From the NCBI GenBank assembly GCA_018985225.1, contig JADGIF010000026.1:1951-33950 (forward strand): 32,000 nt of DNA, given 5' to 3'. A model generated the notes under the pieces. It was not told the origin of the DNA and searched no databases. It worked only from the letters and a program-made list of their open reading frames with translations. The DNA comes from Amoeboradix gromovi X-113 (Eukaryota; Fungi; Sanchytriomycota). Positions 280 to 28,515 of the stretch are shown one piece after another; positions within the stretch are counted from its first letter, which is position 1; every line of letters begins with the position of its first letter. Made by a program: the position numbers and the translations under genes.

Positions 280-2228
280 TTAGTCATATCTTCGCTTGTG
301 CGCCTCATTGTTTACATACCAAGTGCTAGCAAAGTATCCTAACAACAATATCAGCATTCCAATTTGTACGCTATTTCTATCAAATGAGTCAGGTATTTCA
401 TCAAAGCTGCCACTCGGGTGTGTCTTTGTATAAAACAGATCACCACCATGTGCAATAATATGAGACTGCGATTCCCTTGCTGCACTGTTGCTGTTTATAA
501 ACCTAATTCCAAAAAGCCTCTTCGAATTGAGTGCATTAGCAGAAGAATAATAAAACGCATCTGGCTCATTAGGCTTATAGCTAGATAAATCTACCATTGC
601 TTTCTGTATTTTAGTCAATAAACCAGTATAACAAGAATAAACTAAATTAAGAATGGAATACCTATAATGTCTCGATAAGCAACACCAAGAGTAGTTTGAG
701 TAACTGTACTGGCGCTAAATGGACCTTTGTCGATGATTGTCTGCCTCATTTTCACCTTTGGAGATTCAATTGTATCATAAGACCAATTTAACGGCGGAGT
801 ACTTGCAAATATCATCTCGTAAACAACTCCAACAGACTGAATATTATTCAGCATATAAGTAACGTACACAAAGTTCTCCGACATTGTGATTGTGAACGGT
901 TTAAACGCATTATTTAAAACACCATAAATATATGATCTGCCGTTTATAGCATCGATGCCCCAAACAGCCAAGATAGAATCTTTAGCATTGTACCATAGAT
1001 ATGCTTTTAAATTAGGTGCAAACTTTATTTCATCGCCAATAACATATTTGGCCACATTTTCTAAAGGTTTATTAACGGAACCAACTAGAACGAAATCCTT
1101 TGGAATTGGTATCTTGTATTTAGATTTCCATTCTCCGCTCTGTAGTTCTAGACCGTGGATCATCGAATCGTTGGTCAGTACCTTATGGCCAACCACTGGT
1201 GACTTAATGATTTGAGGCTTATTCTTGTTTTTAATTACATTTGTGTTAAACAATATTGTATCCATGACCAAAGAATCTTTAAATGTACTGAATTTAATTA
1301 AAGTGGGGCTACTATTGATCAGTCCGCTGATGTAAACAAAACTGTCAATGTAGTACAACTTTTTGGATTTAAATAATTCTAACCCTTTGATGTCGAATAA
1401 CATAATCTTTCTATTAAGAGTGCCATTTTGATTCACTATATAAAGAGAAGGATCCGTAGGACCACTCAATACCAGTAGCAACTCAAGGTTCTTTGGTTTA
1501 ATTGTTTCCTCAAAAGATAACTGATTCAATAAAATCCTTAAATGAGTGGTGTATCTATCAATCAGAGCTGAAAATATATCCTCGTGCTCTATTCTATTCT
1601 TCATTTGTTTAACCGCAGGCTGTTCAAAATAAAGAGCATCAATAGATCTTGTCATTCCTTGTTCAATAATCCACTCAACAGCACCCTGATTGTTTACGTA
1701 GCTCATAGCTCCACATTGTTTAATTGCCAAGTATCCGTTAGAGAGCTGAAAGGCTTTTTTAATTTCACAGTGAGATTTGATTTTGACATTGCCAAACTGG
1801 TAGCCATGTGTAAGCGATTCTATTTTTAAAGGGCTAGGTTTCGCAGAAAATTGTAAACCGGATGCAGAGGAGCAAGAGCTAGTGCAAATATATTGGGATT
1901 TAGATATCTGAATTGACAATTTGTTTTCGATAGTTTGGACCATCAAGTCAAGACAACCGTTTTTGACAGGAATTGTGTATGGACTAGAGTCCACACCAGA
2001 GCCTAGGGTGACAAAATTTGGGGTACCGATCGCCCATGAGCCATCTCTGTTGATTGAAGAACTACATGCATCATGTACATGTTGACGGTTAACAAGATTA
2101 CCTAGTTCATCATACCATGCTACCATATTAAGATGTGATCTAAGCAGTATTAGTTTCTGAACTTGAACTGCATCTTCTGGGACACCCGCTAATTGTATTG
2201 TTAAACTAAAAGCAAATGATAGGAGCAT
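280..2228 (-). CDS. EMC1: ER membrane protein complex subunit 1-like; exons 2228-662 and 641-280
   Basis: Hydrophobic N-terminus from ATG 2228. EMC1 C-terminal-type motifs: ITMSENFVYVTY, VTQTTLGVAYRDII, AHGGDLFYTKTHPSGSFDEIPDSFD, then one TM helix. The 543-aa and 112-aa ORFs join in frame after removing intron 642-661. Confidence 0.75.
642..661 (-). other. 20-nt GT-AG spliceosomal intron in EMC1 (GTATTCCATTCTTAATTTAG)
   Basis: Removal gives ...ATA G|TT TAT TCT... = RDIIVYSCYTGLLTKIQ, in frame with ORF 280-618. Confidence 0.85.
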
Positions 2229-2544
2229 GTTTAAAAAAATAGATATTAAAAATAACTGAAGAGGCGCTGACAAGTAGAAGAGGAATAGCCAAAAAGAATA
2301 ACTTTTATCTTACATAATATGCTAGAGCTGTTCCATGAAAAGTATTTTGGTGTGTTAAAGGGATGACAAGAGTGAAAGAGTTGAATAATTAGGCAAAAAA
2401 TATCCCTTAAAAAGGTTAAAAAAATATAATGTATACACTTTATCAGACTACTTTACAATCACTAGATCATCGCTAGACTCAAATAATACAGAAAGTTGAT
2501 TGATGCATAAAGAACTCTGCTGGGAAAGATTTGGCTATGGGCAT

Positions 2545-3219
2545 GAAAGATAATCATAGCTAGACTCCGGAATTTAGAAAATCAAAGGGTGGCTCTATAT
2601 TTCACTGACATGATAGAAAGAATTAGGGCTTCCAACTATACCATGAGGTTTAAGGTTGTGCCAAAGTGCCTCTGTGATGTAGCTGAGGGTCTGAACGTGA
2701 ATGCGTACGAGGAAAAGCTTCAAGTCATTGAGAGTATAGTGAGTAGCGTAGAAAGACCGCTGGCGTGAAAGTGAAAAAGACAAAAAATAAACAAGTCTCA
2801 ATATCATAGCACTTCTTTTTATTCGTGCTGCTATTTTGTCACCATTCAAAACTTTGCAGATCTACGACTTGGAGCAATTTTTTCGCATCAGAATATGCGA
2901 AATGAAAAGAACTCAAATTTCGTTAGAGTTGCGACCATTCAAAAACAATATGATGTGTCCAACACTTGTAGTAGCTGCAATCGTTGCGTCAATTGTCAGC
3001 AATGCGGTCACCAAGACCATAGAGATATCAATCCAGGTACTTCAAAATAATGTAGGCAAGAACATGCTCAAATGGTATCTCCCCAAGTTGTCTAGACTTG
3101 AGAAGTGTGGGTTTGAAATCTTCATGATTTTCGAATTCTTCACATTTAACGTAGGCGAACCGGCAAACAAGAGAATTTGGTACCGAATTTTCACCATAAT
3201 AATAGGTGATAAACCTTGA
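2545..3219 (+). pseudogene. Degenerate Fanzor/TnpB-like nuclease relic (element E) containing a 19-nt intron
   Basis: RuvC-I-like LDSGI at 2560. Open frame 2775-3036 with zinc ribbon SNTCSSC..VNCQQCGHQDHRDINP. Splicing 3037-3055 yields HRDINPGKNML (cf. DRDxNAAxNIL). Stops and frameshifts upstream. Confidence 0.7.
3037..3055 (+). other. 19-nt GT-AG intron within the Fanzor relic (GTACTTCAAAATAATGTAG)
   Basis: Same length and TAAY-N-TAG geometry as the host introns. Removal deletes the in-frame TAA at 3048 and restores the RuvC-III motif. Confidence 0.7.
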
Positions 3220-3287
3220 AATTGATACTTGCTGGTTCTAACTTTTTGAGACAGTTGTTTAAAGATTAAATCTAGCTTTTGTAGAGC

Positions 3288-6200
3288 ATGTTGAGTGTGG
3301 CTTATCTAAAACTTCAAATGACCGATCAAGTAAATTTTTGGGAACTTTCCCAAATCGAATTAGAGGATCAGTTAGCACCATCAGAAATACCATGTGAGCC
3401 CTTGACTATTGAACGTGTTCGTAGGGAAGAAGAGCATGAGCTAGACATTTTTAAAAGTGAAGTAAATGGAGAATATCAGCTTATTTTAAGTTTGAGAAAG
3501 TTATATCAACTAGGCTTGCCTTTCAGAGCATTTTTATACGCGTACAGATGTAGCGCATTAAGTGTTCCCCAAGTTAAATCGCACGATCAAGAAAACAAAG
3601 GAGACTTGTACCAAGTAACTTATGAAGTACTGAAGCCTCAAGTTGAAGAAATGAAAAAATTTATGCGATTTTGTTTAACAGTGGTGTCTACCCTAAAGGA
3701 AGTTATCGAGAAGTCAACTAAAATGGATTCCTCACCAGATTTACTGAAAGAAATTGGGGTCTGCTTGGATATGGTTTTAAGCTTGGACTGTTTAAAAAAC
3801 ATGAAGGCATCATTAAACAATGATTTTTCCCTGTACAAGAGATGTCTTTCTAATCTTGGTCCTATGGTAGGACAAGAAGAAATGATGGAAAACAATCAGC
3901 TGTATTTTTTCCTAGGTAATAAGGACTCCTTTATGCTGGCGCTAAAAGAAGAGATTTTTAAAATACCCGGTTTTGAAGACGTTGTCATGGATGTTGCTAA
4001 CATTCAAGTTGAAAACTTAGAAAAGGGAATGTATTTATCACCAAGTGAAAAGTATGTGTTATTAAGATCCATTATTGCTGCAACTGTCATTGTTCACACT
4101 GACAGAAAAGAGAATGCTAAAGATTTTGCACTCAAGGTAAAAAGATTAAAAGCTGAGAAAATATTTAGGGAACTACGAGTTAATCAATTTATTCCTTTAT
4201 TTGGAGAAATGACATTGCAGACTTCATTACTTTTTAAAAAAACATTAATTGCTGACCAATTCAAAGAAACTATTGTTGACAACAACATAAATTTACTCAG
4301 TCAACTTGAAAAGACACAATCCGATTTCCAAAATATTGCAATGAAATTGAAGATTTTTATGAATGTTTATGACCATACAACAGCTGCCTCCACTCTTAAC
4401 GCAGAAACTGTCAGAAATATGTCCAACACCATGGTAGAAGGCCTAAAATTAGTCGTGGAATGGAATTCTGTTATTTTAGAACATAATGCATCTAAAATTG
4501 TAAATCCCGCAGACCCCGAGAAGAAACAATGCCCTCCAGATGCCAAGGAGTACGAAAGAGCGGTAAGATACAATTATAGTGATGCAGAAAAGGAAACTTT
4601 AATTCACTACATTTATATGGTGAAAACGCTGAGCCAACTATTAAGTGAGGTCGAGTTAAAATATTCTGACGTAATTCGTAAAACCGTCTATATAACATAT
4701 CAAGAATTCACTAGAAATACCGTGGATGGCTTAATTTCATTTGCTCAAAAAAAGAAGAAACAATATGCAAATATTTTGTTAAGCATACAGAACTTGGGAA
4801 GCGACATACTAAATCGAGGGCAGGCATACAGAACTGTAGGTCCTAGTAATACTCAAGTAGTATTAACTCGCATGTTGGTACATAGATGTTTGACAGAGAA
4901 CAATAAAGTTCAAGGTGGTCTTTTTACCAAAAATTCTAATTTTTCAGATCTTCAAATGGAAGAGATTGAAGCCTTTATTGATGCCTCTTATTATTTTGAA
5001 GCCATGCTGGATTATAAACATCATTTAAGATCGGCTTCTGACTTATCAGCATTGTGGTTCAAAGAATTTTACTTGGAATTAAGCAAAGAGGTGCAATTCC
5101 CGATAGAGTGCTCTCTGCCTTGGATTTTAATGAACTTTATGCTAAATCATCCGTCCCCTGAATATACAGAGTTCCTTCTGGTCCCCTTTTCTATTTACAA
5201 TGATGCGGCCCATGAAGCACTATATAATTTGAACCTAAGCTACTTATTTGATGAGGTTGAAGCAGAAGCTAATCTAGTGTTTGACCAGTTAATATTTAAA
5301 TACTCGGAAATGGTCTTTTCCCATTTTAAAACTAGATCTACCAGAATGTTAATTGAACAAGAAATCGAGTCTTTAGATAAGCAAAAGCAGCAATCTGCTA
5401 ATAAGAGGTCACTGGATCAAGCAGATTTGAAAGCATTTCATAGTTTGCACGAGTCTATCTTAAAACAAAACAGATTTTATTTATTAGGTCGATTCATTGA
5501 TATCAGAAGAGTGATGGGACAATGCATGAATCAGTATTTTAGGAAAGCATTAGAAGTAGCCATTAATAGATACGAGTCAAGTGACCTGACATTCGCAGTG
5601 CAACTAGGGTTCTTAATCAGATCCAACAAACTAGCTCATAGGCTAGCATCGGAAATACTTCCAATTGATTCATTTGATGACATGTTGAAAGAAGTTGACG
5701 AGAGTACTGTTTTAGGTAGCATGGGTGGTAGATTGTTGTCCCATACATTTGCTGAAATAGTTAATGACATAATGCCGAATTATTGCTTCAGTACCGTTAC
5801 AGAGAGATTTGTGAAATCAATTATGACCAAAAACAAGCAAAGACCTAGTGCCAAGGCGCCTGTCATATACTTATTTGGTACCAAAGCATTAAATTTATAT
5901 GTTAACAAGCAATTTGCTGGATACAAAGGATTTTTAGGTGGATCACCGCATTTTGCAGCTATTTCGAGGATTATAGGTAAACGTCAAACTATTTCATTAA
6001 TTTCAGAGGTGGGAAACGTTGTTGTGCAGATTATCGAATCACACATAACTCCGTACATGAAAATATTAATCAAAGGCTTCCCACAGATTAAACTACCTTC
6101 AGTGGAATACAAGACACAAGGTGTTTATCAATTTTTTATTTCAGCGCTGGCCCCGTTATTAAAATACCAGGATTTACCATTAGTTATGAGCGCGTTTAAA

Positions 6201-6966
6201 GAGATAGGTAATGGCATTATATGCTGCAAGTTACTAGAAGAATGTTTGGTATTTTTTGTTAATCTAGGCCGTTGATTCTGTGCTTAAGGGTTTGGTTAAC
6301 TTTGATAAAATCGATTCTACAAAATTAAGCTTTGGTAATGAGATTTCGATGAGTCCTAAAGATATTGATGAGATAGCTATTTCCTCACTAAAAGGTGCAA
6401 ACAGTTTAAGTTTGAGTGCTAAGCGTCTAAGCATATTGACCAGTAAGCAAAAGTTATCAGTTTTGCCAACAGTTTTTATTAAAGTAAAGGGCGCAATCGA
6501 GCAAGCAGCATTGGAGTGTAGCTCGCTATTGATAAAAACTGCGGGAATGACAAAGTTCGATATTCCGAATGATTTTGCTCACATTTGGTGCTTTGTAGAA
6601 TTCGTTTACGCGTTGCCAGCGATTGGGCAGACAATGGCACATCGACAGATTAGCGGAGATGGCGTGGTGTGGGCTGGGTGCACGTTAATGAAACTGCTAG
6701 GGTATTCTGAAAAACATGCCATTTGCTCTTTTTTGACACATTTATCATATACAAGAAGTATAGAAATACACAAGGATGAGATCTCGCAGCTACCGGATGA
6801 GACAGACGGTGTAGTAAGTATGAGCAATTATGTTAAGAACATAAATGATGAAATTTACAGATTCCTAGATCTAAATATCGAGGAACCAGAAATTAAAGGA
6901 AACGTGTATCCATTGCCGGAAAAGCGCAATTTTGATCAAGTAGTTGATAAGGTAAATAAACAGTAA
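3288..6966 (+). CDS. CYFIP: CYFIP/Sra1/PIR121 (WAVE regulatory complex subunit); exons 3288-6248 and 6268-6966; start may be ATG 3318
   Basis: Family motifs LKNMKASLNNDFSLYKR, CPPDAKEYERAVRYNYS, DLSALWFKEFYLEL, QFPIECSLPWIL, LFDEVEAEANLVFDQ, GDGVVWAGCTLMKLLG. The two ORFs join in frame via intron 6249-6267. Confidence 0.93.
6249..6267 (+). other. 19-nt GT-AG intron in CYFIP (GTATTTTTTGTTAATCTAG)
   Basis: Phase-0 intron; removal gives LEECL|AVDSVLKG, in frame with ORF 6280-6966. Confidence 0.9.
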
Positions 6967-7186
6967 TTTTTAACTTCAAGTCAATCAGTAAAGAAAGTTA
7001 GCTTGCTCGTGCCACTTGCGATAATTACGGCTTTGCACAATACAGCGCATCAATACTTTTATAGGCTTGCTGGATTTATACATTGTTTCCATCCGAGGAT
7101 TTGAAATGGCTTTATTATCCAACGAAATTACAAAGCATCCCGGAGTTTAGCCAATTGAATATTAAAAAACAATCATAAAAAGACGC

Positions 7187-7490
7187 GTGCTAGATTCCGC
7201 ATTGCTGCTGTTTCTTACATGCGTGTTTTCTGTCTCAATTGATTGCTCAAATGTGATCAAGTTTGTAGAAGGAATGCGTCTTGATGTGAAGCAACCAAGT
7301 ATAACGAGTGCTATAAATACAGACTGCTGTGGGATCGGGAAGTTAGTGGGGTGTAACCAAAATATACTGGAATACCTTGGCTTTCAATGGAGTCTTGAAT
7401 AGCACGCAATTGGCATTTATGACCATGATTAATTCTTTAATTGTCAACTACGATCAAATAACTGGCGCGTTCCATTTAGAAGGCACTTGA
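7187..7490 (+). pseudogene. Frameshifted relic of a secreted leucine-rich-repeat protein with a Cys-containing N-cap
   Basis: Signal-peptide-like start and DC...DCC...GC cap. In a shifted frame it continues WNTLAFNGVLNSTQL...LIVNYDQITGAF (LxxNxITG, LRR-like). No ATG; early stop at 7488. Confidence 0.5.
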
Positions 7491-7988
7491 AGATACACGC
7501 AAGAGAATCTAATGATCAACAAATAATGTCGTCGTTCTAAGTCAGTAAATTCTATTAACCTAAAGTAATCACGCTTGCCAATGTACGCATAACTTCAGCT
7601 TCTCTGAGAAAATGATGCCTTCACCTCATGAATTTTGTTTGACAAACATCACTCCTCTTTGGCTATATCCACTATGGCTACCTGTGAAAAGTCTTAATTA
7701 CCAGAAATTATGAAATTTCCAAAGAGAAATGCAAAACATCCTATAATTATTATTAATGTTCTAAAAACGCAGCGCCGAATGTATCTCTATTTGGGCCACT
7801 ACAAAAATAAGTAGTAAAGTAACCAAATATCACAAAATGCAGAGCCAGCAGTTAGAAAACAAGAAATCAATGCGGACCATCAGTATAACCACAACTGAAG
7901 GTCTGAAAAAATTGATTTAGTTTTGCTATATTATATTCTCAAGTACATGTAGAGCTCAATTCATATTCTACATAGTTTATTTATTTTA

Positions 7989-10694
7989 CTATAACAAGTA
8001 ATCCATTACATGCATGTAATACAATTGCTTATCTTCGTTCTCTATTTTTGGATAATAGGGTACCATACTGTCCTGCCCGCTTATGTATATGCCATTGTAT
8101 ATCTTCCAGTACACCTGTCTAACTCTTCTCGCAGGATGAAATAGACCTTGCAATAAATATTGCAATATCAGTCCGGAACCAAGTGACAAGCTAAGCGCTT
8201 CTATGGCCTCAAACACACTTTCCAAGACATGACTTGATTCGAATAGGTTGGGCCATGTTAGATTCAACATATGTATCAATTGCTCGTCTAACCCGCAGCC
8301 ATAAACATTGCTAGCTAGATTCTTAATTATCTGGCACCCGATTTGCCTATGAATTACATCTCTATCAACCAGTGCATCTTCGATTAATGTAGTAGCCACA
8401 TTGGTGTAATCAATTGCATCTGGGCCTATGTACTCAAATATATATGAAATGCTTTTTAATACTCCATTTTGTACATTAACCTCAGGGTACCTATACTCGT
8501 TCAACAGCTGTGCTAGTATAGTATATGCTCCACACTTTTGTGCTATGATACCTATACTTACCGCTGTACATAGTCGTATTTGCCGTTCCTGAACTTTTAG
8601 GTTATTTATTAACGTAGCTAATACTTCTTGTGGCCCGATAGCCTGAGCAATGCATCCCAGACACACTGTACTTGCCTTGCGAATACCCTTTCTTTGTGCT
8701 CTCATTAATTCCACAAGCTCAAATGATATTCTAATCCATTCTCTTGGGTTTATATGATCCGCACCATGTTCTGCTATGTATCCTACTAGAGATATGCAAT
8801 TCTCCTGTACCTGCTCATGCCTATTTCTCAATATAGGAGTTAGCCTAGGCAATAGATCTTTAATTGGTGGAGTCATTGTGTCCATTCCAATGGCAACCAC
8901 TACGCTGTTTAGCCCAGCTATAATGCTAGCAAGAGTATCTGGATACTCCTCGCCTAGATATTCATACAAGACCACACCAAGGTTGTTTAGTTGCTTTAAT
9001 TCATTGCAATCTTTTAACACCATAGTTATCTTAGATATCAATTCAGCAGTCAATTGCCTTACTTTAGGGGTCTTTGAATTCAGTCTAAACAATATGGTGC
9101 TCATTATTTGCTCAATATATGGCTTAGCATTCAAACGTAAATGTTCCAGAAAAGTGCTAAAAGCATTTAAAGTAACCGGCTCATCCATAGACTGATGTTG
9201 AAAAGCGTACAGAAGACCGTCTACTATCTCCTGCTGCAATCTCAAGTCTAATTCATCGACTGATTGGATTTCGATCAGTTTTAGTAAACATTCGCACGAC
9301 ATCTTTCTTAAAGGTTCACTTTCATCCTTCAGATTAAATTTTAAATGGCTCAGTATCTCTGATGACTTCAACTTGCTAGCTAGAGCTACAGTAGCATCAA
9401 TTATTGGTTTGACCATCCTTCTATCCAATGCCATTCTCCTATTCCAAAACGACTCCAGGAAAGGGTTCAATATTGTGGGTTCCATTTTTATCTCACTCTG
9501 ACAGCATTTACATAGTACCAGTAATATAGTCCTTTTGACATCTGCATCAAAGGATCCAAATTCGCGAACTAGTAATGGAATAATCTGACGAGTGTAATAA
9601 CTGGCATCTTCAGTATCCATTAATGGTATAATACATCCAACTGCTTTTAGTGCTGCCACCAATGCTTTACCACGATGTTGCTTAACATTCTTCCATAAGT
9701 TAAGTACTATTGGTTCAAATTTCTCTATTCCATAAGGATGGCAAGATTCAGCCAAAGCGCTAATAGCCAGGAATGTTATAGTTCGTACCTGAATATTTTT
9801 ATCATCTAATCTGTCTTTCAACGCATCAATAAAGTATCCCAACTGAGGTAGCAAGGATATACCCAGCCTCTGAGCGCTAAAATACAATGTACGCACACCT
9901 GTATGTCTCTCATCTGGATTTTCGCTCGCGCAAATGGCTTTCACAAATGGCATAACAGAACTGATACCAACAGTAGATAAAATAACACTTAGCGCTTTTG
10001 AACAGCATTGGCGCATGAATTCGTCTTCGTTAGCCGTGTCCTGCTTAAGTCTGTTTAATAAAATGAACGCACCAACAGCCTTGGTCAAGTTGCCAAACAG
10101 TTGAAAACCAAATCTACGAGTCATGTAATCTTCACTCACCAATAATGGCAATATGATAACCAACAGCTCATTGACATACAGTCTAAGTTTATCGCCGTGT
10201 TTAATCATCATCTTGTCTATCAGTTTCAATATCGCTAATCGTTCACTATCACTAAGTTGTTCCTGAATCATTAAAGTCAGAAGGTTTTTCATGACAAGAT
10301 CTAAATCAGCAAATTCCAAATGTCTAGATGCAGTCTTACGTTGATACTGTTGGCCTTTTACTAGGTGCAAAAGATGGTAAGCGACTTTTTTTTGCTTCAA
10401 CTCTGCCGTGGATAAAACTTCATCCGGTTGCTTCAATAATGGGAACAGCTGCAAATAGGGTTTCGTAAGTTGCTCTTCTTGTAAATCAACAACAGGTGCC
10501 GAAAATGTTAATTGATTATATACAATAGCGTAACCTTGAGACGGCAAAATAGAATCAATATGAGCTAGGACGTAATCTACATCATTGCCAACTAATTGTG
10601 GTGGACTGTTATCTTGAATATCCCATCTTGATTTGCGTTTAACTTGAGCTGGTTGAATATTTTCTGTATTTCTAGCTCTATCCCAGCGGCTCAT
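7989..10694 (-). CDS. SF3B1: Splicing factor 3B subunit 1 (SF3B1/Hsh155), about 901 aa from ATG 10694
   Basis: Two SRWD ULM motifs; HEAT-repeat motifs RHTG, PYGIEKF, LYEYLGEEYPDTL, PPIKDLLPRLTPILRNRHEQVQENCI, LQGLFHPARRVR. Confidence 0.96.
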   Translation of the reverse strand: MSRWDRARNTENIQPAQVKRKSRWDIQDNSPPQLVGNDVDYVLAHIDSILPSQGYAIVYNQLTFSAPVVDLQEEQLTKPYLQLFPLLKQPDEVLSTAELKQKKVAYHLLHLVKGQQYQRKTASRHLEFADLDLVMKNLLTLMIQEQLSDSERLAILKLIDKMMIKHGDKLRLYVNELLVIILPLLVSEDYMTRRFGFQLFGNLTKAVGAFILLNRLKQDTANEDEFMRQCCSKALSVILSTVGISSVMPFVKAICASENPDERHTGVRTLYFSAQRLGISLLPQLGYFIDALKDRLDDKNIQVRTITFLAISALAESCHPYGIEKFEPIVLNLWKNVKQHRGKALVAALKAVGCIIPLMDTEDASYYTRQIIPLLVREFGSFDADVKRTILLVLCKCCQSEIKMEPTILNPFLESFWNRRMALDRRMVKPIIDATVALASKLKSSEILSHLKFNLKDESEPLRKMSCECLLKLIEIQSVDELDLRLQQEIVDGLLYAFQHQSMDEPVTLNAFSTFLEHLRLNAKPYIEQIMSTILFRLNSKTPKVRQLTAELISKITMVLKDCNELKQLNNLGVVLYEYLGEEYPDTLASIIAGLNSVVVAIGMDTMTPPIKDLLPRLTPILRNRHEQVQENCISLVGYIAEHGADHINPREWIRISFELVELMRAQRKGIRKASTVCLGCIAQAIGPQEVLATLINNLKVQERQIRLCTAVSIGIIAQKCGAYTILAQLLNEYRYPEVNVQNGVLKSISYIFEYIGPDAIDYTNVATTLIEDALVDRDVIHRQIGCQIIKNLASNVYGCGLDEQLIHMLNLTWPNLFESSHVLESVFEAIEALSLSLGSGLILQYLLQGLFHPARRVRQVYWKIYNGIYISGQDSMVPYYPKIENEDKQLYYMHVMDYLL

Positions 10695-10804
10695 GTGACG
10701 GAGAGATTTCAAAAATATTAAAACAAATTTAAACACCAACAAAATCATTGCAATTAAAAAAGAGTTGCTTACTAGTTTTCAGCAAGAGCACCAGAAATGA
10801 GTAT

Positions 10805-11228
10805 ATCATCGTTAAAATTTATGATTTCCGAGAAAACCAAGAATTTTAACAAAGAAACTGAACGCCACTCGATTTGCTATGGTGATAGCTCATGCCTCTA
10901 CTCCATTCAGCCGGGACTTGATAAGAATGCATATAAGTGCATCTTCCTTGCCGCTATAGCCTCTATCTACTTTCGGATGACAGTTTGTGATGTGTATGTC
11001 TTCAGGTTTATTTTCTTCAGAGTACTGCGTATGATGCACCTCTGTGTGGTTAATGCAGTAGAGTATTTACTCCAATGCAGTTCCTCCTTATGTGCACTTC
11101 CACTGCATTTTTAGACAATTATCGGAATTCACTCCTTTGTACAGTAAGACAAATCTAGAAAGAGATTACATTGGAACTTTTTATCTCATTTGATCAAAAT
11201 AAATGGTTTATTTAATTAAATTCGATAG
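10805..11228 (-). mobile_element. Degenerate non-autonomous Fanzor2-derived element (copy D)
   Basis: Minus strand reads TTQRCIIRSTLKKINLKTY..TNCHPKVDR, matching copy A TSQTCTRCGTLKKTNLQSYSCTKCHLQIDR. Identical TTTTCTCGGAAATCA near the right end. Left end CAG|15 nt|AAATAAACCATTTAT. Confidence 0.75.
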
Positions 11229-11263
11229 CTGTGTTCAAAACTGAATCAAGGGAGTAACTTCAA

Positions 11264-13414
11264 ATGTCGAATCACTGTGCTTTACATTCGAAATTTAGCT
11301 CAGTATGTTTTTATTGCATCATGAGGCTAAATGATCCAGAAAAAACCAGTCAATTAACATCTAATTTACAGCAATTACATACTCAAAGTTCAGATCTGCA
11401 GTTAAGTTGGTTAAATGCGATTAAACAGTCTATTGAATCCATGCATTCGACTGTTTTCATGAAATGGTTGACAACTTGCTACTTGTTAGAGTCCTGCTTT
11501 GAAATGTTCAAATTTAACAGATCAACCTGTTTTGCACTGGATATTTTAGATGATTTTGTAGTCCTGCTTCCTTGCTCAAGAGTCACCAGGCTTTGCATTA
11601 CCAATTTCTCAATGATTACACAACTCACTAGTAGCGAGAATGTAACCATACGCGCAAGTGTTTGTAGATTGCTATACTCAATTGGTATCCATTTGCCTGT
11701 GTTTACTAGTATAGACACTGTCAAGTTAACCTTGTCGCTGCTTGCAGTTATGAATAAACAAGCCAGCCAATATAAATTGAAGTCTTTCGAGCGCGATGTC
11801 ATATTACCAATGAGTACAGATGAAGAAATGGCAAGATATATTCCTAGATATGTCCAAATTATGCAGGAAAACTGTATGATGACCTTAGGTATGGTTATTT
11901 ATGGTCGTGTCCATGATATTCCACACAACCACCTGCTAATTAGTTCAATCCCTCATTTAGGAAACCAACTACTTAAGCATGTACAAGAGCGACGACCTTC
12001 ATGTTATCCAGAGTCTCAGAAATCAGATGTCGCTGCGTCTGCATTGGCTGCACTGCTGCAGTTGCCTTTGTATGATGAAGTCGAAGACTTTGATGATGAG
12101 GATTGGAGCAATGCATTTAGTAATTTGGAAAAAACTTGCACAACCGAGTTCATTCAGAAAATTCAAGTAGCTATCAAGTCTCTGCTGTTAGATACGCCCG
12201 AAAATATTGAGAAGATGTTGAAGAAACAGATTAAAAAGAAGCACAAGATACCTAGGCCCCCAAATGAAGAAGACCATGCTAAGGCAGTTGAATCCACTCA
12301 CCGTGCTCTAATATCTCTAGTTTCTATCTTGTGCAATCTATCATTCTTTAGCGATTTAACTACTCGTATCCTAAGCACGATTCCCACTTTGTTGTACATC
12401 GTAAAAGAGAAACACATTCCAAAACCACAAGCTCCATTCTACCGCAATATATTGAATGATTTGTGCCTAGCTAAAGGTGTTCATCGCGATCCTAATTTTC
12501 ATCCAAGTCGGTTTTTACTAAATTCATTTTCAGCTCCTTTGCGTGACACTACAATACTCGCATTATTGCGAATACGCAGATGGTTGGTCAGTGTATCTCC
12601 AGATTCTGCAGAGAGTGGCGTTCCTGTAGCTGAGGTTTCTCAATCCCCATTTTCTGATATTCCATTAGAAATGTGGTCCCCAGACACCGCTTATCTTCTG
12701 TATCAACAAGCAAAACAGCTCTCCATGACATGTAGAAGAAGAGGTAACTTTGCGTTTGCAGACAAGGACTGCAAATATGCGGCTTGCCAATACACCAGCG
12801 CTTTACTTCTAACGTCATTCGAAGAAGAGGACTTGCTTATTAGATTACCACCTGTAAAATCCTCTGAACCGGCTCTCGAATTTCTACCTCCAATGCTATA
12901 TTTTAAATCTAAAAGGGTCGCTGATAGATTTATATTTAAAAGTAATCGTGCAGAATGCTGGTTAAGAGTTCAAGGGATGCATGACAGAGCCAATCTAGAT
13001 GCTAGCAACGCCATCGAAGAAATGAATATGATGGTGTTCGAACTAGCAGAAATGTTCCCCTTAGAGCAGAATCACGATAAATCAGATCAGTTAGCTTATA
13101 GATCACTGCTAGTAGGTGATGACCTTTGGGAAAAGAATGAAAGGAGAATAAAAAGAGCAGACGAGTGCTTTTTAGCTGAAAAGAGACAAGAGCAAGACTA
13201 CTACAACGAAATAAATGCGCGAGAAGAAATGGTTAACGGTGACGAAAATGAAGAGTATATAGAAGAAGACAGTGATCTAGATGAGGTCCATAAAGTCAAG
13301 GGACAAGAAGAGACTGATTACAGTAGTGATGAATTTTTTGAAGATGAAAAAACTAGAGAAATCCAACAGATTATAGCTGCGTCAAACGGTAATAAGCTTG
13401 GAAGACTAGAATAG
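11264..13414 (+). CDS. Uncharacterised helical-repeat (ARM/HEAT-like) protein with C-terminal TPR motifs and an acidic tail
   Basis: 716-aa ORF with TPR-clamp-like RRRGNFAF...QYTSAL and KSNRAECWL. AATAAA lies just after the stop. Confidence 0.7.
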   Translation: MSNHCALHSKFSSVCFYCIMRLNDPEKTSQLTSNLQQLHTQSSDLQLSWLNAIKQSIESMHSTVFMKWLTTCYLLESCFEMFKFNRSTCFALDILDDFVVLLPCSRVTRLCITNFSMITQLTSSENVTIRASVCRLLYSIGIHLPVFTSIDTVKLTLSLLAVMNKQASQYKLKSFERDVILPMSTDEEMARYIPRYVQIMQENCMMTLGMVIYGRVHDIPHNHLLISSIPHLGNQLLKHVQERRPSCYPESQKSDVAASALAALLQLPLYDEVEDFDDEDWSNAFSNLEKTCTTEFIQKIQVAIKSLLLDTPENIEKMLKKQIKKKHKIPRPPNEEDHAKAVESTHRALISLVSILCNLSFFSDLTTRILSTIPTLLYIVKEKHIPKPQAPFYRNILNDLCLAKGVHRDPNFHPSRFLLNSFSAPLRDTTILALLRIRRWLVSVSPDSAESGVPVAEVSQSPFSDIPLEMWSPDTAYLLYQQAKQLSMTCRRRGNFAFADKDCKYAACQYTSALLLTSFEEEDLLIRLPPVKSSEPALEFLPPMLYFKSKRVADRFIFKSNRAECWLRVQGMHDRANLDASNAIEEMNMMVFELAEMFPLEQNHDKSDQLAYRSLLVGDDLWEKNERRIKRADECFLAEKRQEQDYYNEINAREEMVNGDENEEYIEEDSDLDEVHKVKGQEETDYSSDEFFEDEKTREIQQIIAASNGNKLGRLE

Positions 13415-13461
13415 TGAATAAATTATTGATTGTTATTAATAAAGTACTCTTGATTAAGCAG

Positions 13462-14070
13462 CTTGACTATTTTCTTGAATAAATCATTTATCGCGAATTT
13501 GTATACATCTTTGTATCATTTCAAGACTTTTCCAATAGCTTAAACACTCGATATTCTTCCTTTTCGCAAATGGTTAATGGAATAAATAGAAGTAATCCCG
13601 AATATGTCAAATCTAAAGAAATAACTAACAGGTACAGCATACAAAGACATATGATCTTATATTCTTATCATCGTTCAATACTAGCCAAATGATAAGTAGC
13701 TTGTCGAGCAAAGTCGCAACAAACATGGCCACAATGTCTCATCACGCATTCAAGGAACGCTTGTAGTTCAAGCGTAAGCAAAGAGGAAAGACGATGGTCG
13801 AATGCAATGAATCATTTACTAGTCAGACATGTACAAGGTGTGGTACTCTAAAGAAAACCAACTTACAAAGCTACAGCTGTACAAAGTGTCATTTGCAGAT
13901 AGATAGAGACCATATGGCTGCAAGGAACATATACATCAAGTATCTGCATCCTTATTCAATTCCGCCTCAGGGTAGTGCAAGCGTGAGCAATCACTGTAAC
14001 GGAGCATCTAGCATTAGTTTGTCTGTGGAAATTCTCGATTTTCTCGGAAATCAGGACTTTTAGCGAGGAG
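13462..14070 (+). mobile_element. Non-autonomous, internally deleted Fanzor2/IS607-TnpB-derived element (copy A)
   Basis: Encodes YDLIFLSSFNTSQMISSLSSKVATNMATMSHHAFKERL*FKRKQRGKTMVECNESFTSQTCTRCG...CTKC..IDRDHMAARNI. Shares about 170 bp of left end and about 320 bp of right end with copy B. Confidence 0.9.
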
Positions 14071-15097: not shown

Positions 15098-16586
15098 ATG
15101 GTTTGCTTGGGTATTTCTGTTTGCAGTCTGACTGGTCAAGTATTAGTTTCCCGCCATTTTATTCCAATGTCACGTGCCAGGGTAGAAGGTTTACTCTCTT
15201 CTTTCCCTAAATTACTGGAAAGCAATGCGCAACATACTTATTTAGATACTGATCAAGTTAGATTAGTATTTCAACCTTTAGACAAAGTTTATTTGATTAT
15301 GATGACAAATAAAAAATCTAATATTTTGCAAGACTTAAATACGCTGAATTTATTCGCCAAAATTGTTCAAGATACCTGTAGTTGCACTGATCAGGGCGTA
15401 ACCGAGAAGGGATTTGAGTTGATTCATGCATTTGATGAAGTGATATCTGGAGGGCAACCTGAAAACTTAGATCTTGGTCAAATCAAAACTATTTTGGAAA
15501 TGGACAGCCATGAAGAAAAGATTCATGAAATGATAGAGAAGAACAAGGAGCTAGAAGCCAAGGCCGAATTGAAGCGCAAAGCTAAAGAGATGGATCAGTT
15601 AAAGCGAGCTACATCTAAGACTTCTGTTCCCACAATGGCTGCAAATACCAATTACAACGCACCTGTGTCGACAATTAATGTACCTTCTGTTTCTGCTCAA
15701 CCTGTGTATAATCAACCCACTGGTAGAGGTATGAAGTTGGGTGCATCCAACCCAAACGATGACTTTCTTTCGTCCTTGCAGCAACAAGTGCAGACTCAGT
15801 TGCAGCAGCAGGAAGCTGCCAAACCTGTTATTAAGGCTAAATCTCCTGCTAAATCTAAAGTAGAGGAAAAAGACGTTCATGTCACGTTGGAGGAGCATTT
15901 GACTGCCCAAATACTTCATGACGGAGGAATTTCTAATTGTGAATTAAAGGGTGAAATCATAATTAAAATTAATAATGAGTCATATAACCAGTGCATAATT
16001 GAATACCTACCTGGTAATAGCAACGTGCAGTTTAAATCACATCCATTAGTCGATAAGAAATCATTTGCTTCTAATTTAATTTCATCAAGGTCTAAGCCAT
16101 TTCCAACTAAACAGCCGCTTAGTCTAGTTAAGTATAGATGCACGATAGCTGATGATGACGCATTGCCGCTTCACATAGAATGCTGGCCTAATCCTAATGG
16201 AGATGGAACGTCAGATGTAAATTTAGAATACGAATTGCCCGCAGGATCACAAACGAGACTAACAGATGTTATAATATCTATAAACATTCCGTATTTGTTA
16301 TTAACATAGGACTTCAATTCAACCACAAGTAGGCGTTTGTGATGGAAAGCACGAGTTTAGCAATAAAGTATTAAGCTGGCATATCCCAATGATTAATAGT
16401 AAAGATCCATCAGGACTATTTGAATTTAAAATGCAGAGCGAGTCGAGTATATTTCCAGTACAGGTGGACTTCAAAAGTGAAAACTCATTATTTGGGATAG
16501 GAATAAAATCTGTACAACAAGATGAGCAGAATGTTCCGTACTCATTTGAATGTAACTGTATGGCAGATCAGTATTTTATAAATTAA
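15098..16586 (+). CDS. RET2: Coatomer subunit delta (Ret2/ARCN1); exons 15098-16290 and 16310-16586
   Basis: Motifs MSRARVEGLLSSFPKL, SNILQDLNTL, LEMDSHEEKI and mu-homology FKSHPLVDK, CWP. Joined to ORF 16389-16586 by intron 16291-16309. Confidence 0.95.
16291..16309 (+). other. 19-nt GT-AG intron in delta-COP (GTATTTGTTATTAACATAG)
   Basis: Removal gives NIP|TSIQPQVGVCDGKHEFSNKVLSWHIPMINSKDPSGLFEF, the expected delta-COP C-terminus, in frame with ATG 16389. Confidence 0.92.
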
Positions 16587-27197: not shown

Positions 27198-27549
27198 AGT
27201 CTTTCATTATTTAATGCAGAACTTATGCAAAAACCCACGAGTGTAGCTCATCGCCAGCCGCTTATATAATTGTTAAAAGTGAGATGCCTCGTATCTCCAG
27301 TCGTTAGATATATTGGTTGAGCCTCGGAAGGTTAGGCTAAGTAATTTTTGCGAAACATTTTCCTATTGTATCGCTTGCAAGTTAACAAAATACTTAGATT
27401 TCGTTTCCTTTTTGCTTTCCAGTCTTCACCATTTTGTAACTGCACTTCCATGAGTTGCAGTTCTGGCTCGCTATCTCTATAATATTTTGGAAGATACCTC
27501 GGCGCAGTAATTGCTTAAGCGCAACTGAAATAGTCTAAAAGGACCCAGT

Positions 27550-28515
27550 CTCCTCATTGAATGACCTGATCTCAGAGAAAATCAAAAATTTCCAGAAAGA
27601 AAATAATTTCTCCATCACAGTAATTGCTCACGCTTCCACGCTCTGAGGCGGAACTGAATAAGGATATATACAAGTTCATGCCACCTGCTGCCATACGGTC
27701 TTTATCCACTTTCGAATCACAGTTTACACAGCCCGATTGTTTTCTTGAATAAATTATTTATCGCGAATTTGTATGCATTTTTGTATAATTTCAAGACTTT
27801 TCCAGATTTTTCTAATAGCCTAAATACTCGATATTCTTCTTTTTCGCAAATGGTAAATGGAATCTAAAGAAATAACTAGCAGGTACAGCATATATTCATC
27901 TCAGACTGATAAGCTGGTCCAAAGATGGAAGAATTAGATGTCTTTCAATGCCTAGACAGCAATATCTGTACAATTTATTCAAGGAACGCTTGAAGTTCAA
28001 ATGTAGACAAAGAGGAGAGACTATAATCGAATGTAATGAATCATTTACTAGTCAGACATGGACAAGGTATGGCAATCTAAAAAGAACCAACTTAGAAACT
28101 TACGCCTGTACCAATTGTCATTTGGAGATAGATAGAGACCGTATGGCAGCAAGGAACATATACATCAAGTATATGCATCGTTATTCAATCCCGCCTCAGG
28201 GTAGTGAAAGCGTGAGCTATCCCTATAACGGAGCATCTAGCATTGCTAGTTTCTCTGTGGAAATTCTCAATTTTCTCGGAAATCAGGACTTTTAATGAGG
28301 AGCTAACTCTCCTGATTACTTTACCTCAGAGCGCCACGTCTAACATCCTGGCTCTTTAATTGGTTCATTGGATTGTACCAATGTCTTTCCAGTTATTTCT
28401 CAGATGAGGAAACAAATTGCCCTGCTTTTATACAGTTAGAAATTATAATCTGAACATTTTGAGCGATAACTTTCATGTAGTAACAATAAACGATTTATTC
28501 AAGAAAAATCATCAG
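27550..28515 (-). mobile_element. Older degenerate Fanzor2-derived element (copy C), split by insertion of copy B
   Basis: Left end TAG|CTGATGATTTTTCTTGAATAAATCGTTTAT at 28515. GKTLVQSNEP... in 28303-28390 continues across copy B into CVNCDSKVDKDRMAA at 27731 and below. Right end ...TCAATGAGGAG at 27550. Confidence 0.85.
27732..28302 (+). mobile_element. Non-autonomous, internally deleted Fanzor2-derived element (copy B), nested in copy C
   Basis: FKERLKFKCRQRGETIIECNESFTSQT...CTNCHLEIDRDRMAARNI. Ends match copy A; AG at both junctions (27730-31 and 28301-02). Confidence 0.9.

What the first reader, a model, noticed from the sequence alone, without database searches (positions are those of the whole stretch)
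2545..3219. A second Fanzor lineage with a host-type 19-nt intron inside the RuvC-III motif
Seen: a zinc ribbon and HRDINP absent from the ORF track, interrupted by a 19-nt GT-AG segment whose removal gives HRDINPGKNML. An LDSGI RuvC-I-like remnant lies at 2560, and 3115-3154 loosely resembles the right end of the A-D family. Established: Fanzors can acquire introns. Inference: this element gained a micro-intron in this host lineage, implying long vertical residence and de novo gain of micro-introns. The intron lies near the expected omegaRNA region, so spliced mRNA and omegaRNA could differ.
Basis: partly seen in the sequence, partly recalled or inferred. Interest (0 to 1): 0.75.

Follow-up and report, generated by a model that had tools for sequence, protein, structure and literature searches.

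The report
Guide-RNA transposon gained tiny fungal intron
A 400-base broken copy of an RNA-guided nuclease (Fanzor2) transposon carries a 19-base insert that its relatives lack and that matches the host's own tiny introns, so it is likely an intron gained after the element entered this, probably fungal, host.

Summary
The 19-nt GT-AG segment (3037-3055) is real. It has the length and GTA..TAA..YAG signature of three host introns in the window. Removing it restores a C-terminus 16/18 identical to an uninterrupted relative. The unit is smaller than the finding: a non-autonomous IS607-Fanzor2 deletion derivative at 2758-3157 (left end, 24 codons of IS607 tnpA, the Fanzor2 3' end, right end). It is about 100-fold deeper than its flanks in DNA run X1. 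A complete intronless relative (L006) has the same CCG target and right end. Three longer copies from Amoeboradix gromovi also stop inside the insert. That lineage nests among four intronless clusters, so the intron was probably gained once, before the family spread in the host. Corrections: LDSGI at 2560 lies outside the element and has no profile match, and the first CxxC is a deletion junction. The conserved hairpin/pseudoknot omegaRNA core (3084-3157) lies 28 nt downstream of the intron, so the intron is probably outside the guide scaffold. No RNA run was listed, so splicing is inferred. Fanzor introns and ghost copies are known; a polarised gain of a 19-nt intron in an IS607-Fanzor2 was not found in my searches.

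The parts
2757..2759 (+). Target motif CCG; its CG is the likely crossover dinucleotide, repeated at 3156-3157; predicted TAM
   Evidence: Loose ends begin at 2757 in run X1; the L006 element is also preceded by CCG and ends in CG; CCG is the TAM measured for NlovFz2 (PMC10432273)
2760..2894 (+). Left end of the element; imperfect inverted repeat with the right end
   Evidence: Depth jumps in the 2712-2812 bin and loose ends at 2757; 2758-2790 vs reverse complement of 3125-3157, 0 of 2000 shuffles; similarity to the first 45 nt of the L006 left end is not significant (324 of 2000)
2895..2966 (+). First 24 codons of an IS607 TnpA (serine recombinase) gene, the rest deleted
   Evidence: 14/24 identical to the N-terminus of L006 TnpA, E=2e-8 pairwise; L006 TnpA hits NF033518 at 6e-44; ATG lies 135 nt from the left boundary here and 151 nt in L006
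2967..2991 (+). Deletion junctions; the CSSC here is not the Fanzor zinc-finger pair
   Evidence: P0001/P0002 carry 53 more residues, including the true first CxxC; a 165-nt loose end joins at 2992
2992..3036 (+). Fanzor2 3' coding remnant: second CxxC and the RuvC-III HRDINP motif
3037..3055 (+). 19-nt GT-AG micro-intron (inferred), phase 1, with an AGG direct repeat at its junctions; the in-frame TAA at 3048-3050 is also the branch-like motif
   Evidence: kept with 3 internal substitutions in an 86%-identical contig
3056..3113 (+). Last coding exon. This copy differs from the family at 3095 and lacks one G after 3108, which removes the nearby stop codon
   Evidence: 16/18 identical to P0008; family alleles; effect computed
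3084..3157 (+). Predicted omegaRNA core and right end: short hairpin 3084-3100, whose loop pairs with 3151-3156 (pseudoknot), then a long hairpin 3103-3148
   Evidence: 21 of 22 cells paired against L006, 2 double-sided changes; with only two sequences this is not significant (144 of 500 shuffles)
3158..3177 (+). Predicted guide segment (flanking host DNA)
   Evidence: Inference from TnpB/Fanzor2 biology (PMC10432273, PMC10711439); loose ends at 3157-3159; not tested

Best explanation
2758-3157 is one copy of a repeated, non-autonomous deletion derivative of an IS607-type Fanzor2 transposon, and its 19-nt insert is likely a spliceosomal micro-intron gained once in the intact parent gene after the element entered this host lineage. 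Shown: the boundaries, the tnpA and Fanzor2 remnants, the insert, its match to host introns, its presence in other host-family copies and its absence from relatives. Inferred steps: (1) an intronless IS607-Fanzor2, of a clade also found on a virus-like contig, reached a sanchytrid-like fungus. (2) 19 nt were inserted at an AG|G site just after the catalytic RuvC-III aspartate. The gene would have survived because the host spliceosome removes such introns; unspliced RNA would give a protein cut 7 residues after the aspartate and lacking the following helix. (3) Internal deletions produced 'ghost' copies that keep both ends. A TnpA supplied in trans would insert them at CCG sites by crossover at CG. 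(4) Each copy could still give an omegaRNA (scaffold about 3080-3157 plus flanking guide) for an intact Fanzor2 elsewhere. In this copy the intron is a passenger: the copy cannot encode a nuclease, and it carries a private change that breaks one pseudoknot pair.
For: Host introns of 19, 19 and 20 nt with GTA..TAAnnTAG lie at frame breaks of CYFIP, delta-COP and EMC1. A random 19-mer fits that pattern at 9e-6 (pattern set after seeing the introns). Profile of 14 intronless proteins: spliced 44.4 bits, unspliced 20.9. 4 of 4 close clusters (P0004-7, P0008/21, P0009, P0010/22) are uninterrupted, and L006 shows this in DNA. 3 of 3 A. gromovi proteins stop at the intron's TAA, including P0003, which still has the DPG and LPEF motifs. 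P0003 is sister to intronless P0008 (100/96) inside a 100/100 clade whose other members are intronless. A contig with 14 differences in 97 nt keeps GT, TAA and TAG and changes 3 middle intron bases; its two listed exon changes are synonymous in the spliced frame (5 of the 14 differences were listed). No joint skipping the 19 nt among 203 and 92 laid contigs. L006 holds TnpA, Fanzor2, the CCG target and an almost identical right end.
Against: Splicing was not observed. Only 1 of the 4 intronless clusters was seen as DNA; the others are predicted proteins from 1-4 kb contigs that could come from transcript assemblies, including the sister P0008. Conservation after the intron is partly explained by overlap with the omegaRNA. 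P0003 fills only 40% of the tree columns. No full-length host copy and no intact host TnpA were seen. Contig depth is not copy number. The virus-like nature of L006 is my reading (26% G+C, DUF4116, no bacterial marker among its ORFs); its record is labelled Flavobacterium MAG. The omegaRNA folds are no more stable than shuffles (z from -1.8 to 0.0), and the pseudoknot helix alone is reached by 21-60% of shuffles.
Confidence: 0.8

Rival explanations
1. The 19 nt are a chance insertion that killed one copy, whose descendants were then amplified in trans; it is never spliced.
For: No spliced reads are available; the AGG direct repeat at the junctions fits repair-type insertion; all host copies seen are defective or partial.
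Against: Exact host length and signals (9e-6 for a random 19-mer); a diverged copy keeps all three signals while the middle changes; the longest host copy, P0003, has it too.
Confidence: 0.07
2. The intron is older than the host lineage: it was present in an ancestor of the clade and was lost, or is hidden by splicing, in the relatives.
For: The DNA of P0004, P0008 and P0009 was not seen, and their contigs are short.
Against: L006 is intronless genomic DNA. Loss would be needed on at least three branches. The 11 more distant relatives aligned or read (P0011-P0020, L007) are also uninterrupted at this motif.
Confidence: 0.08
3. The intron lies inside a longer omegaRNA, so splicing changes the guide scaffold. 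This is compatible with intron gain and differs only in consequence.
For: A 9-bp stem (3022-3030 with 3073-3081) is predicted around the intron, and the spliced form folds 2.4 kcal/mol lower although it is 19 nt shorter. Fanzor2 scaffolds reach 205 nt (PMC11832414).
Against: That stem is not predicted in L006. In ApmFz2 the pseudoknot strand is 13-14 nt from the scaffold's 5' end, and in ISXfa1 it is at -130 of a roughly 150-nt RNA, which here would put the start near 3077. MmeFz2 has just S1, S2 and the pseudoknot (PMC12923547), the parts found at 3084-3157.
Confidence: 0.2

Closest known systems
IS607-type Fanzor2 transposons (ApmFz2/ISvMimi, ACa-1/-2; PMC3627910, PMC10711439, PMC11832414)
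   Same: tnpA serine recombinase upstream of a DPG/alternative-glutamate nuclease gene; insertion at a dinucleotide core; pseudoknotted right-end RNA; best solved-structure hit of P0004 is 9b0l (E=1.7e-19)
   Different: Core is CG rather than the GG described for IS607; nuclear element of a probable fungus; host-type micro-intron in RuvC-III; this copy is non-autonomous
NlovFz2 and MmeFz2 (PMC10432273, PMC12923547)
   Same: CCG at the left flank equals the NlovFz2 TAM; hairpin + long hairpin + pseudoknot layout as predicted for MmeFz2
   Different: No transposase was found for those loci, whereas this family carries a tnpA remnant; TAM and activity are not measured here
Ghost Spu-1 loci of Spizellomyces (PMC10432273)
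   Same: Many nuclease-less copies keeping both ends and the omegaRNA region
   Different: Those are Fanzor1 elements with 30-nt inverted repeats; this is IS607-Fanzor2 and keeps part of the coding 3' end with its intron
Intron-containing Fanzors such as CrFNuc (PMC10530073)
   Same: Spliceosomal introns acquired by a Fanzor gene
   Different: The example in the text is a Helitron-borne Fanzor1c; introns were predicted with AUGUSTUS/Spaln and no single gain was polarised in the passages I read; the per-family figure (Fig. 1D) was not visible to me
IStrons (PMC10690162; search listing only)
   Same: An intron and a guide RNA in one TnpB-family element
   Different: [quoted passage not shown]

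Membership tests
Fanzor2 (family level) | DPG motif in RuvC-I | tested here: met
   ALDPG in host copy P0003 and in P0004, P0008-P0010; deleted from the window copy
Fanzor2 (family level) | Alternative RuvC-II glutamate | tested here: met
   LLPEF in P0003 and the four close relatives; my assignment by alignment position; deleted from the window copy
Fanzor2 (family level) | C4 zinc finger followed by RD | tested here: met
   Both CxxC pairs in P0002/P0003, PF07282 above cut-off; the window copy keeps only the second pair
Fanzor2 (family level) | N-terminal HTH (PF12323) | tested here: inconclusive
   Present in P0004, P0008 and L006; no host copy long enough was found
Fanzor2 (family level) | Eukaryotic or giant-virus host | tested here: met
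   Flanked by EMC1 and CYFIP genes with introns; family proteins in EukProt A. gromovi
Fanzor2 (family level) | Pseudoknotted omegaRNA at the right end | tested here: inconclusive
   Same hairpin and loop pairing in two sequences with covariation, but 144 of 500 shuffles reach it
Fanzor2 (family level) | RNA-guided DNA cleavage next to a TAM | not testable with these tools
   Needs a biochemical assay
Intact Fanzor2 gene (this copy) | Complete RuvC triad in one frame | tested here: not met
   Only RuvC-III is left; no match upstream
IS607 transposon | TnpA serine recombinase with MerR-like HTH | tested here: met
   Whole in L006 (NF033518 6e-44); 24-codon remnant in the window
IS607 transposon | Insertion at a dinucleotide core without a longer duplication | tested here: met
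   CG at both boundaries in the window and in L006; two sites only, and no natural empty allele was read
Spliceosomal (U2-type) intron | GT donor, AG acceptor, host-like branch motif and length | tested here: met
Spliceosomal (U2-type) intron | Removal restores a conserved reading frame | tested here: met
Spliceosomal (U2-type) intron | Excised from RNA | not testable with these tools
   No RNA holder listed

The most novel reading that the evidence does not exclude
The gained micro-intron is a switch in a selfish RNA-guided element. Splicing is needed both to complete the RuvC-III helix and to close a 5' stem (3022-3030 with 3073-3081) of a longer omegaRNA, while retention gives a truncated, catalytically dead Fanzor2. 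The host spliceosome would then gate nuclease and guide production from the parent gene and from its many ghost copies.
Probability: 0.15. Interest if true: 0.78.

Novelty: new variant of a known kind. Interest (0 to 1): 0.52.

Why it matters
Intron gain is rarely caught with a known direction. Here a gene of prokaryotic or viral type, intronless in all close relatives, carries one intron of the host's own extreme size, which shows that a reduced parasite genome can still create 19-nt introns. It also extends IS607-Fanzor2 elements, with a CG core and a predicted CCG TAM, to a probable early-diverging fungus where they have multiplied. Practically, 19-20-nt introns break gene predictions: all three EukProt proteins of this family end inside the intron, so such Fanzors are missed or truncated in surveys. 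The intact relatives (P0007, P0021, P0009, P0022) are uncharacterised compact nucleases with a predicted TAM and a roughly 80-nt scaffold.

Tried and rejected
No whole genome is held for the window, so copies could not be read directly. Sequencing runs: no RNA holder listed; this is no evidence on expression. Run X2 covers the stretch only in scattered 150-220-nt pieces without differences; one piece reaches 3052; not used. A homologue search with the window's unspliced 91-aa frame found nothing (6 candidates). The metagenome pattern scan gave 5 matches, all unrelated on translation. Viral contigs: nothing with P0004 or with the RuvC-III pattern; the clade alignment gave 4 distant loci at 25-43% identity. 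LDSGI as RuvC-I: rejected. The frame at 2547-2756 has no usable Atlas hit and only E=0.11 family hits. The 142-codon stop-free frame 2791-3216 has no family hit; it is the last exon's frame extended. Intron as a tandem duplicate of its flanks: 7/19 and 4/19 identity, not supported. My first idea of a TIR/TSD miniature element was replaced by IS607 after L006. The intron signature gave 9 hits on both strands against 4.2 expected; 4 lie at real frame breaks, 2 of the other 5 were spliced in a script and restored no frame, and 3 lie antisense to long ORFs. Fold energies of the omegaRNA region are not better than shuffles. Earlier-findings look-ups by sequence and place were empty.

Full report
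Setting. The finding lies between two divergent host genes, EMC1 (minus strand, 280-2309) and CYFIP (plus strand, 3285-6966), in a compact eukaryotic genome of about 37% G+C. No whole genome is held. The closest proteins of the element's family are EukProt entries of Amoeboradix gromovi, nearly identical to the window where they overlap. The host is therefore probably that sanchytrid fungus or a close relative; this is an inference.

The insert. 3037-3055 is a 19-nt GT..AG segment after the HRDINP codons. Read-through ends at TAA 3048-3050, and removal gives HRDINPGKNML. Host genes in the window break frame at introns of 19 nt (CYFIP 6249-6267; PF05994 split into profile parts 3-672 and 742-883), 19 nt (delta-COP 16291-16309; PF00928 ends at 153 of 259 at the break, and the second exon had no hit of its own) and 20 nt (EMC1 642-661; only the second piece hit Pfam). 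All three read GTA..TAAnnTAG, as does the insert. A random 19-mer of this composition fits at 9e-6; the pattern was set after seeing these introns, and its looser form gives 9 hits against 4.2 expected.

Relatives decide the frame. A search of 1.84 billion representatives gave one hit, P0001, which led to P0002, P0003 and P0004 and then to 14 proteins. Four clusters form a clade with the host family (43-65% identity to P0003), and 4 of 4 read uninterrupted through the motif. P0008 has the same G after the proline and matches the spliced window at 16 of the next 18 residues. A profile built only from 14 intronless proteins scores the spliced frame 44.4 bits and the unspliced 20.9. Among 1,880 possible excisions the 19-nt ones are best, and one register is GT..AG. 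All 3 A. gromovi proteins end four residues after HRDINP, at the intron's stop. This includes P0003, which still has RuvC-I (DPG) and the alternative glutamate, so the intron belongs to the parent gene and not only to short copies. In the tree P0003 is sister to P0008 (100/96), then P0004 (93/91), within a 100/100 clade with P0009 and P0010 (P0003 fills 40% of columns). One gain is simpler than at least three losses. Caveat: only P0010's DNA was seen.

The unit is a 400-nt repeat. In DNA run X1, summed contig depth is 18-34 over most of the flanks (range 6-53) and 2,300-14,000 over the bins from 2712 to 3216, with loose ends at 2757 and 3157-3159. A 92-nt unitig identical to 2992-3083, spanning the intron, has depth 2408 against 18-23 for the flanking unique contigs. 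The tool warns that depth is not copy number, so 'about a hundred-fold' is only a guide. No joint skipping the 19 nt was listed among 203 and 92 laid contigs; contigs show presence, not absence. A 1,133-nt contig matches 2991-3087 with 14 differences. The 5 listed are three mid-intron changes that leave GT, TAA and TAG intact and two exon changes that are synonymous after splicing. The window copy has private defects: all covering depth reads C at 3095, which gives the threonine seen in P0004/P0008, and 9,083 of 14,265 has one more G after 3108, which closes the frame a few codons later. A diverged second haplotype joins 2243 to 3316, so the stretch is not fixed in the sample.

What the parent looked like. 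A pattern scan of GTDB genomes found L006 (JAYTPS010000196.1), labelled as a Flavobacterium MAG but 26% G+C with a DUF4116 gene and otherwise unassigned ORFs; I read it as virus-like. It holds a complete intronless element at 1163-3123: an IS607 TnpA (NF033518, 6e-44) overlapping a 575-codon Fanzor2 frame. The window's 2895-2966 is the N-terminus of that TnpA (14/24). The last 15 bases of the two right ends, with the first two flanking bases, differ at one position. Both elements follow CCG and end in CG; in L006 this is the only CG in 264 nt, and the element interrupts a reading frame there. IS607 elements cross over at a dinucleotide (PMC10711439, passages), and CCG is the measured TAM of NlovFz2 (PMC10432273, passages). 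The window copy is thus left end + tnpA start + Fanzor2 3' end + right end. LDSGI at 2560 is outside the element and unmatched.

Intron and omegaRNA. The window and L006 share a short hairpin (3084-3100) whose loop can pair with the last bases of the element, followed by a long hairpin. Of 22 cells 21 pair; the stem has two double-sided changes, and the one broken pair is the window's private base at 3095. With two sequences this is not significant (144 of 500 shuffles), the helix alone is reached by 21-60% of shuffles, and fold energies match shuffles. The layout is, however, the one described for MmeFz2 (PMC12923547, passages). In ApmFz2 the pseudoknot strand is 13-14 nt from the 5' end of a 205-nt scaffold (PMC11832414, passages). 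By analogy the RNA starts near 3077, about 20 nt past the intron.

Comparison with print. Intron capture by Fanzors is reported (PMC10530073: passages, section 6, two supplement files searched as text, with no mention of Amoeboradix or Sanchytrium). Ghost loci are reported (PMC10432273, section 7), and so are Fanzor2 in IS607-like elements (PMC3627910, passages and section 13). Ten searches, seen mostly as listings, showed no paper on Fanzors or on intron length in sanchytrids; the one 'intron' in PMC8371127 is in a reference title (passages). The library lacks most subscription papers, so this is weak. One earlier AI note (e1-7175743) describes introns upstream of guide RNAs in Fanzor1 ghost elements of another chytrid; I did not test it.

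Verdict. The boundaries, the RuvC-I remnant and the first zinc pair are corrected, the element is identified as a non-autonomous IS607-Fanzor2, and splicing remains unobserved. It is a new variant of known kinds; interest 0.52.

Noticed in passing
window 6249-6267 (+), 16291-16309 (+), 642-661 (-): Host introns are only 19-20 nt with a GTA..TAAnnTAG signature, while SF3B1 and RPB1 are single long ORFs. I found no paper on such introns in sanchytrids.
   Followed up: partly
window 13459-14070, 27729-28302, 27548-27730 (-), 10803-11056 (-), 28300-28507 (-): The A-D family is another set of decayed TnpB/Fanzor2-like elements (PF07282 4e-16 and 9e-15), uninterrupted at RuvC-III, with right ends related to this family's; copy A has AG at both boundaries.
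   Followed up: partly
window 2244-3315 and 3326-4408: Run X1 holds a second haplotype or sister organism, about 84-91% identical in EMC1 and CYFIP at half depth, that skips 1,072 nt of this intergenic stretch.
   Followed up: no
window 2547-2759 and 3158-3197: The element sits inside a stop-free frame of about 84 codons with no recognised homologue; it may be a disrupted small gene or chance.
   Followed up: partly
L006 1163-3123: Complete IS607-Fanzor2 element on an AT-rich, virus-like contig filed in a Flavobacterium MAG; probably mis-binned. tnpA overlaps the 5' third of the Fanzor2 frame.
   Followed up: partly
window 3093-3157 and 2758-2812: Summed depth is several times higher at the element's ends than in its middle, and one contig skips 3040-3137, which suggests still shorter ghost forms; unitig overlaps inflate these sums.
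   Followed up: no
P0001-P0003: EukProt proteins of this species appear to be unspliced ORF calls on genomic contigs, so genes with micro-introns are truncated there.
   Followed up: no
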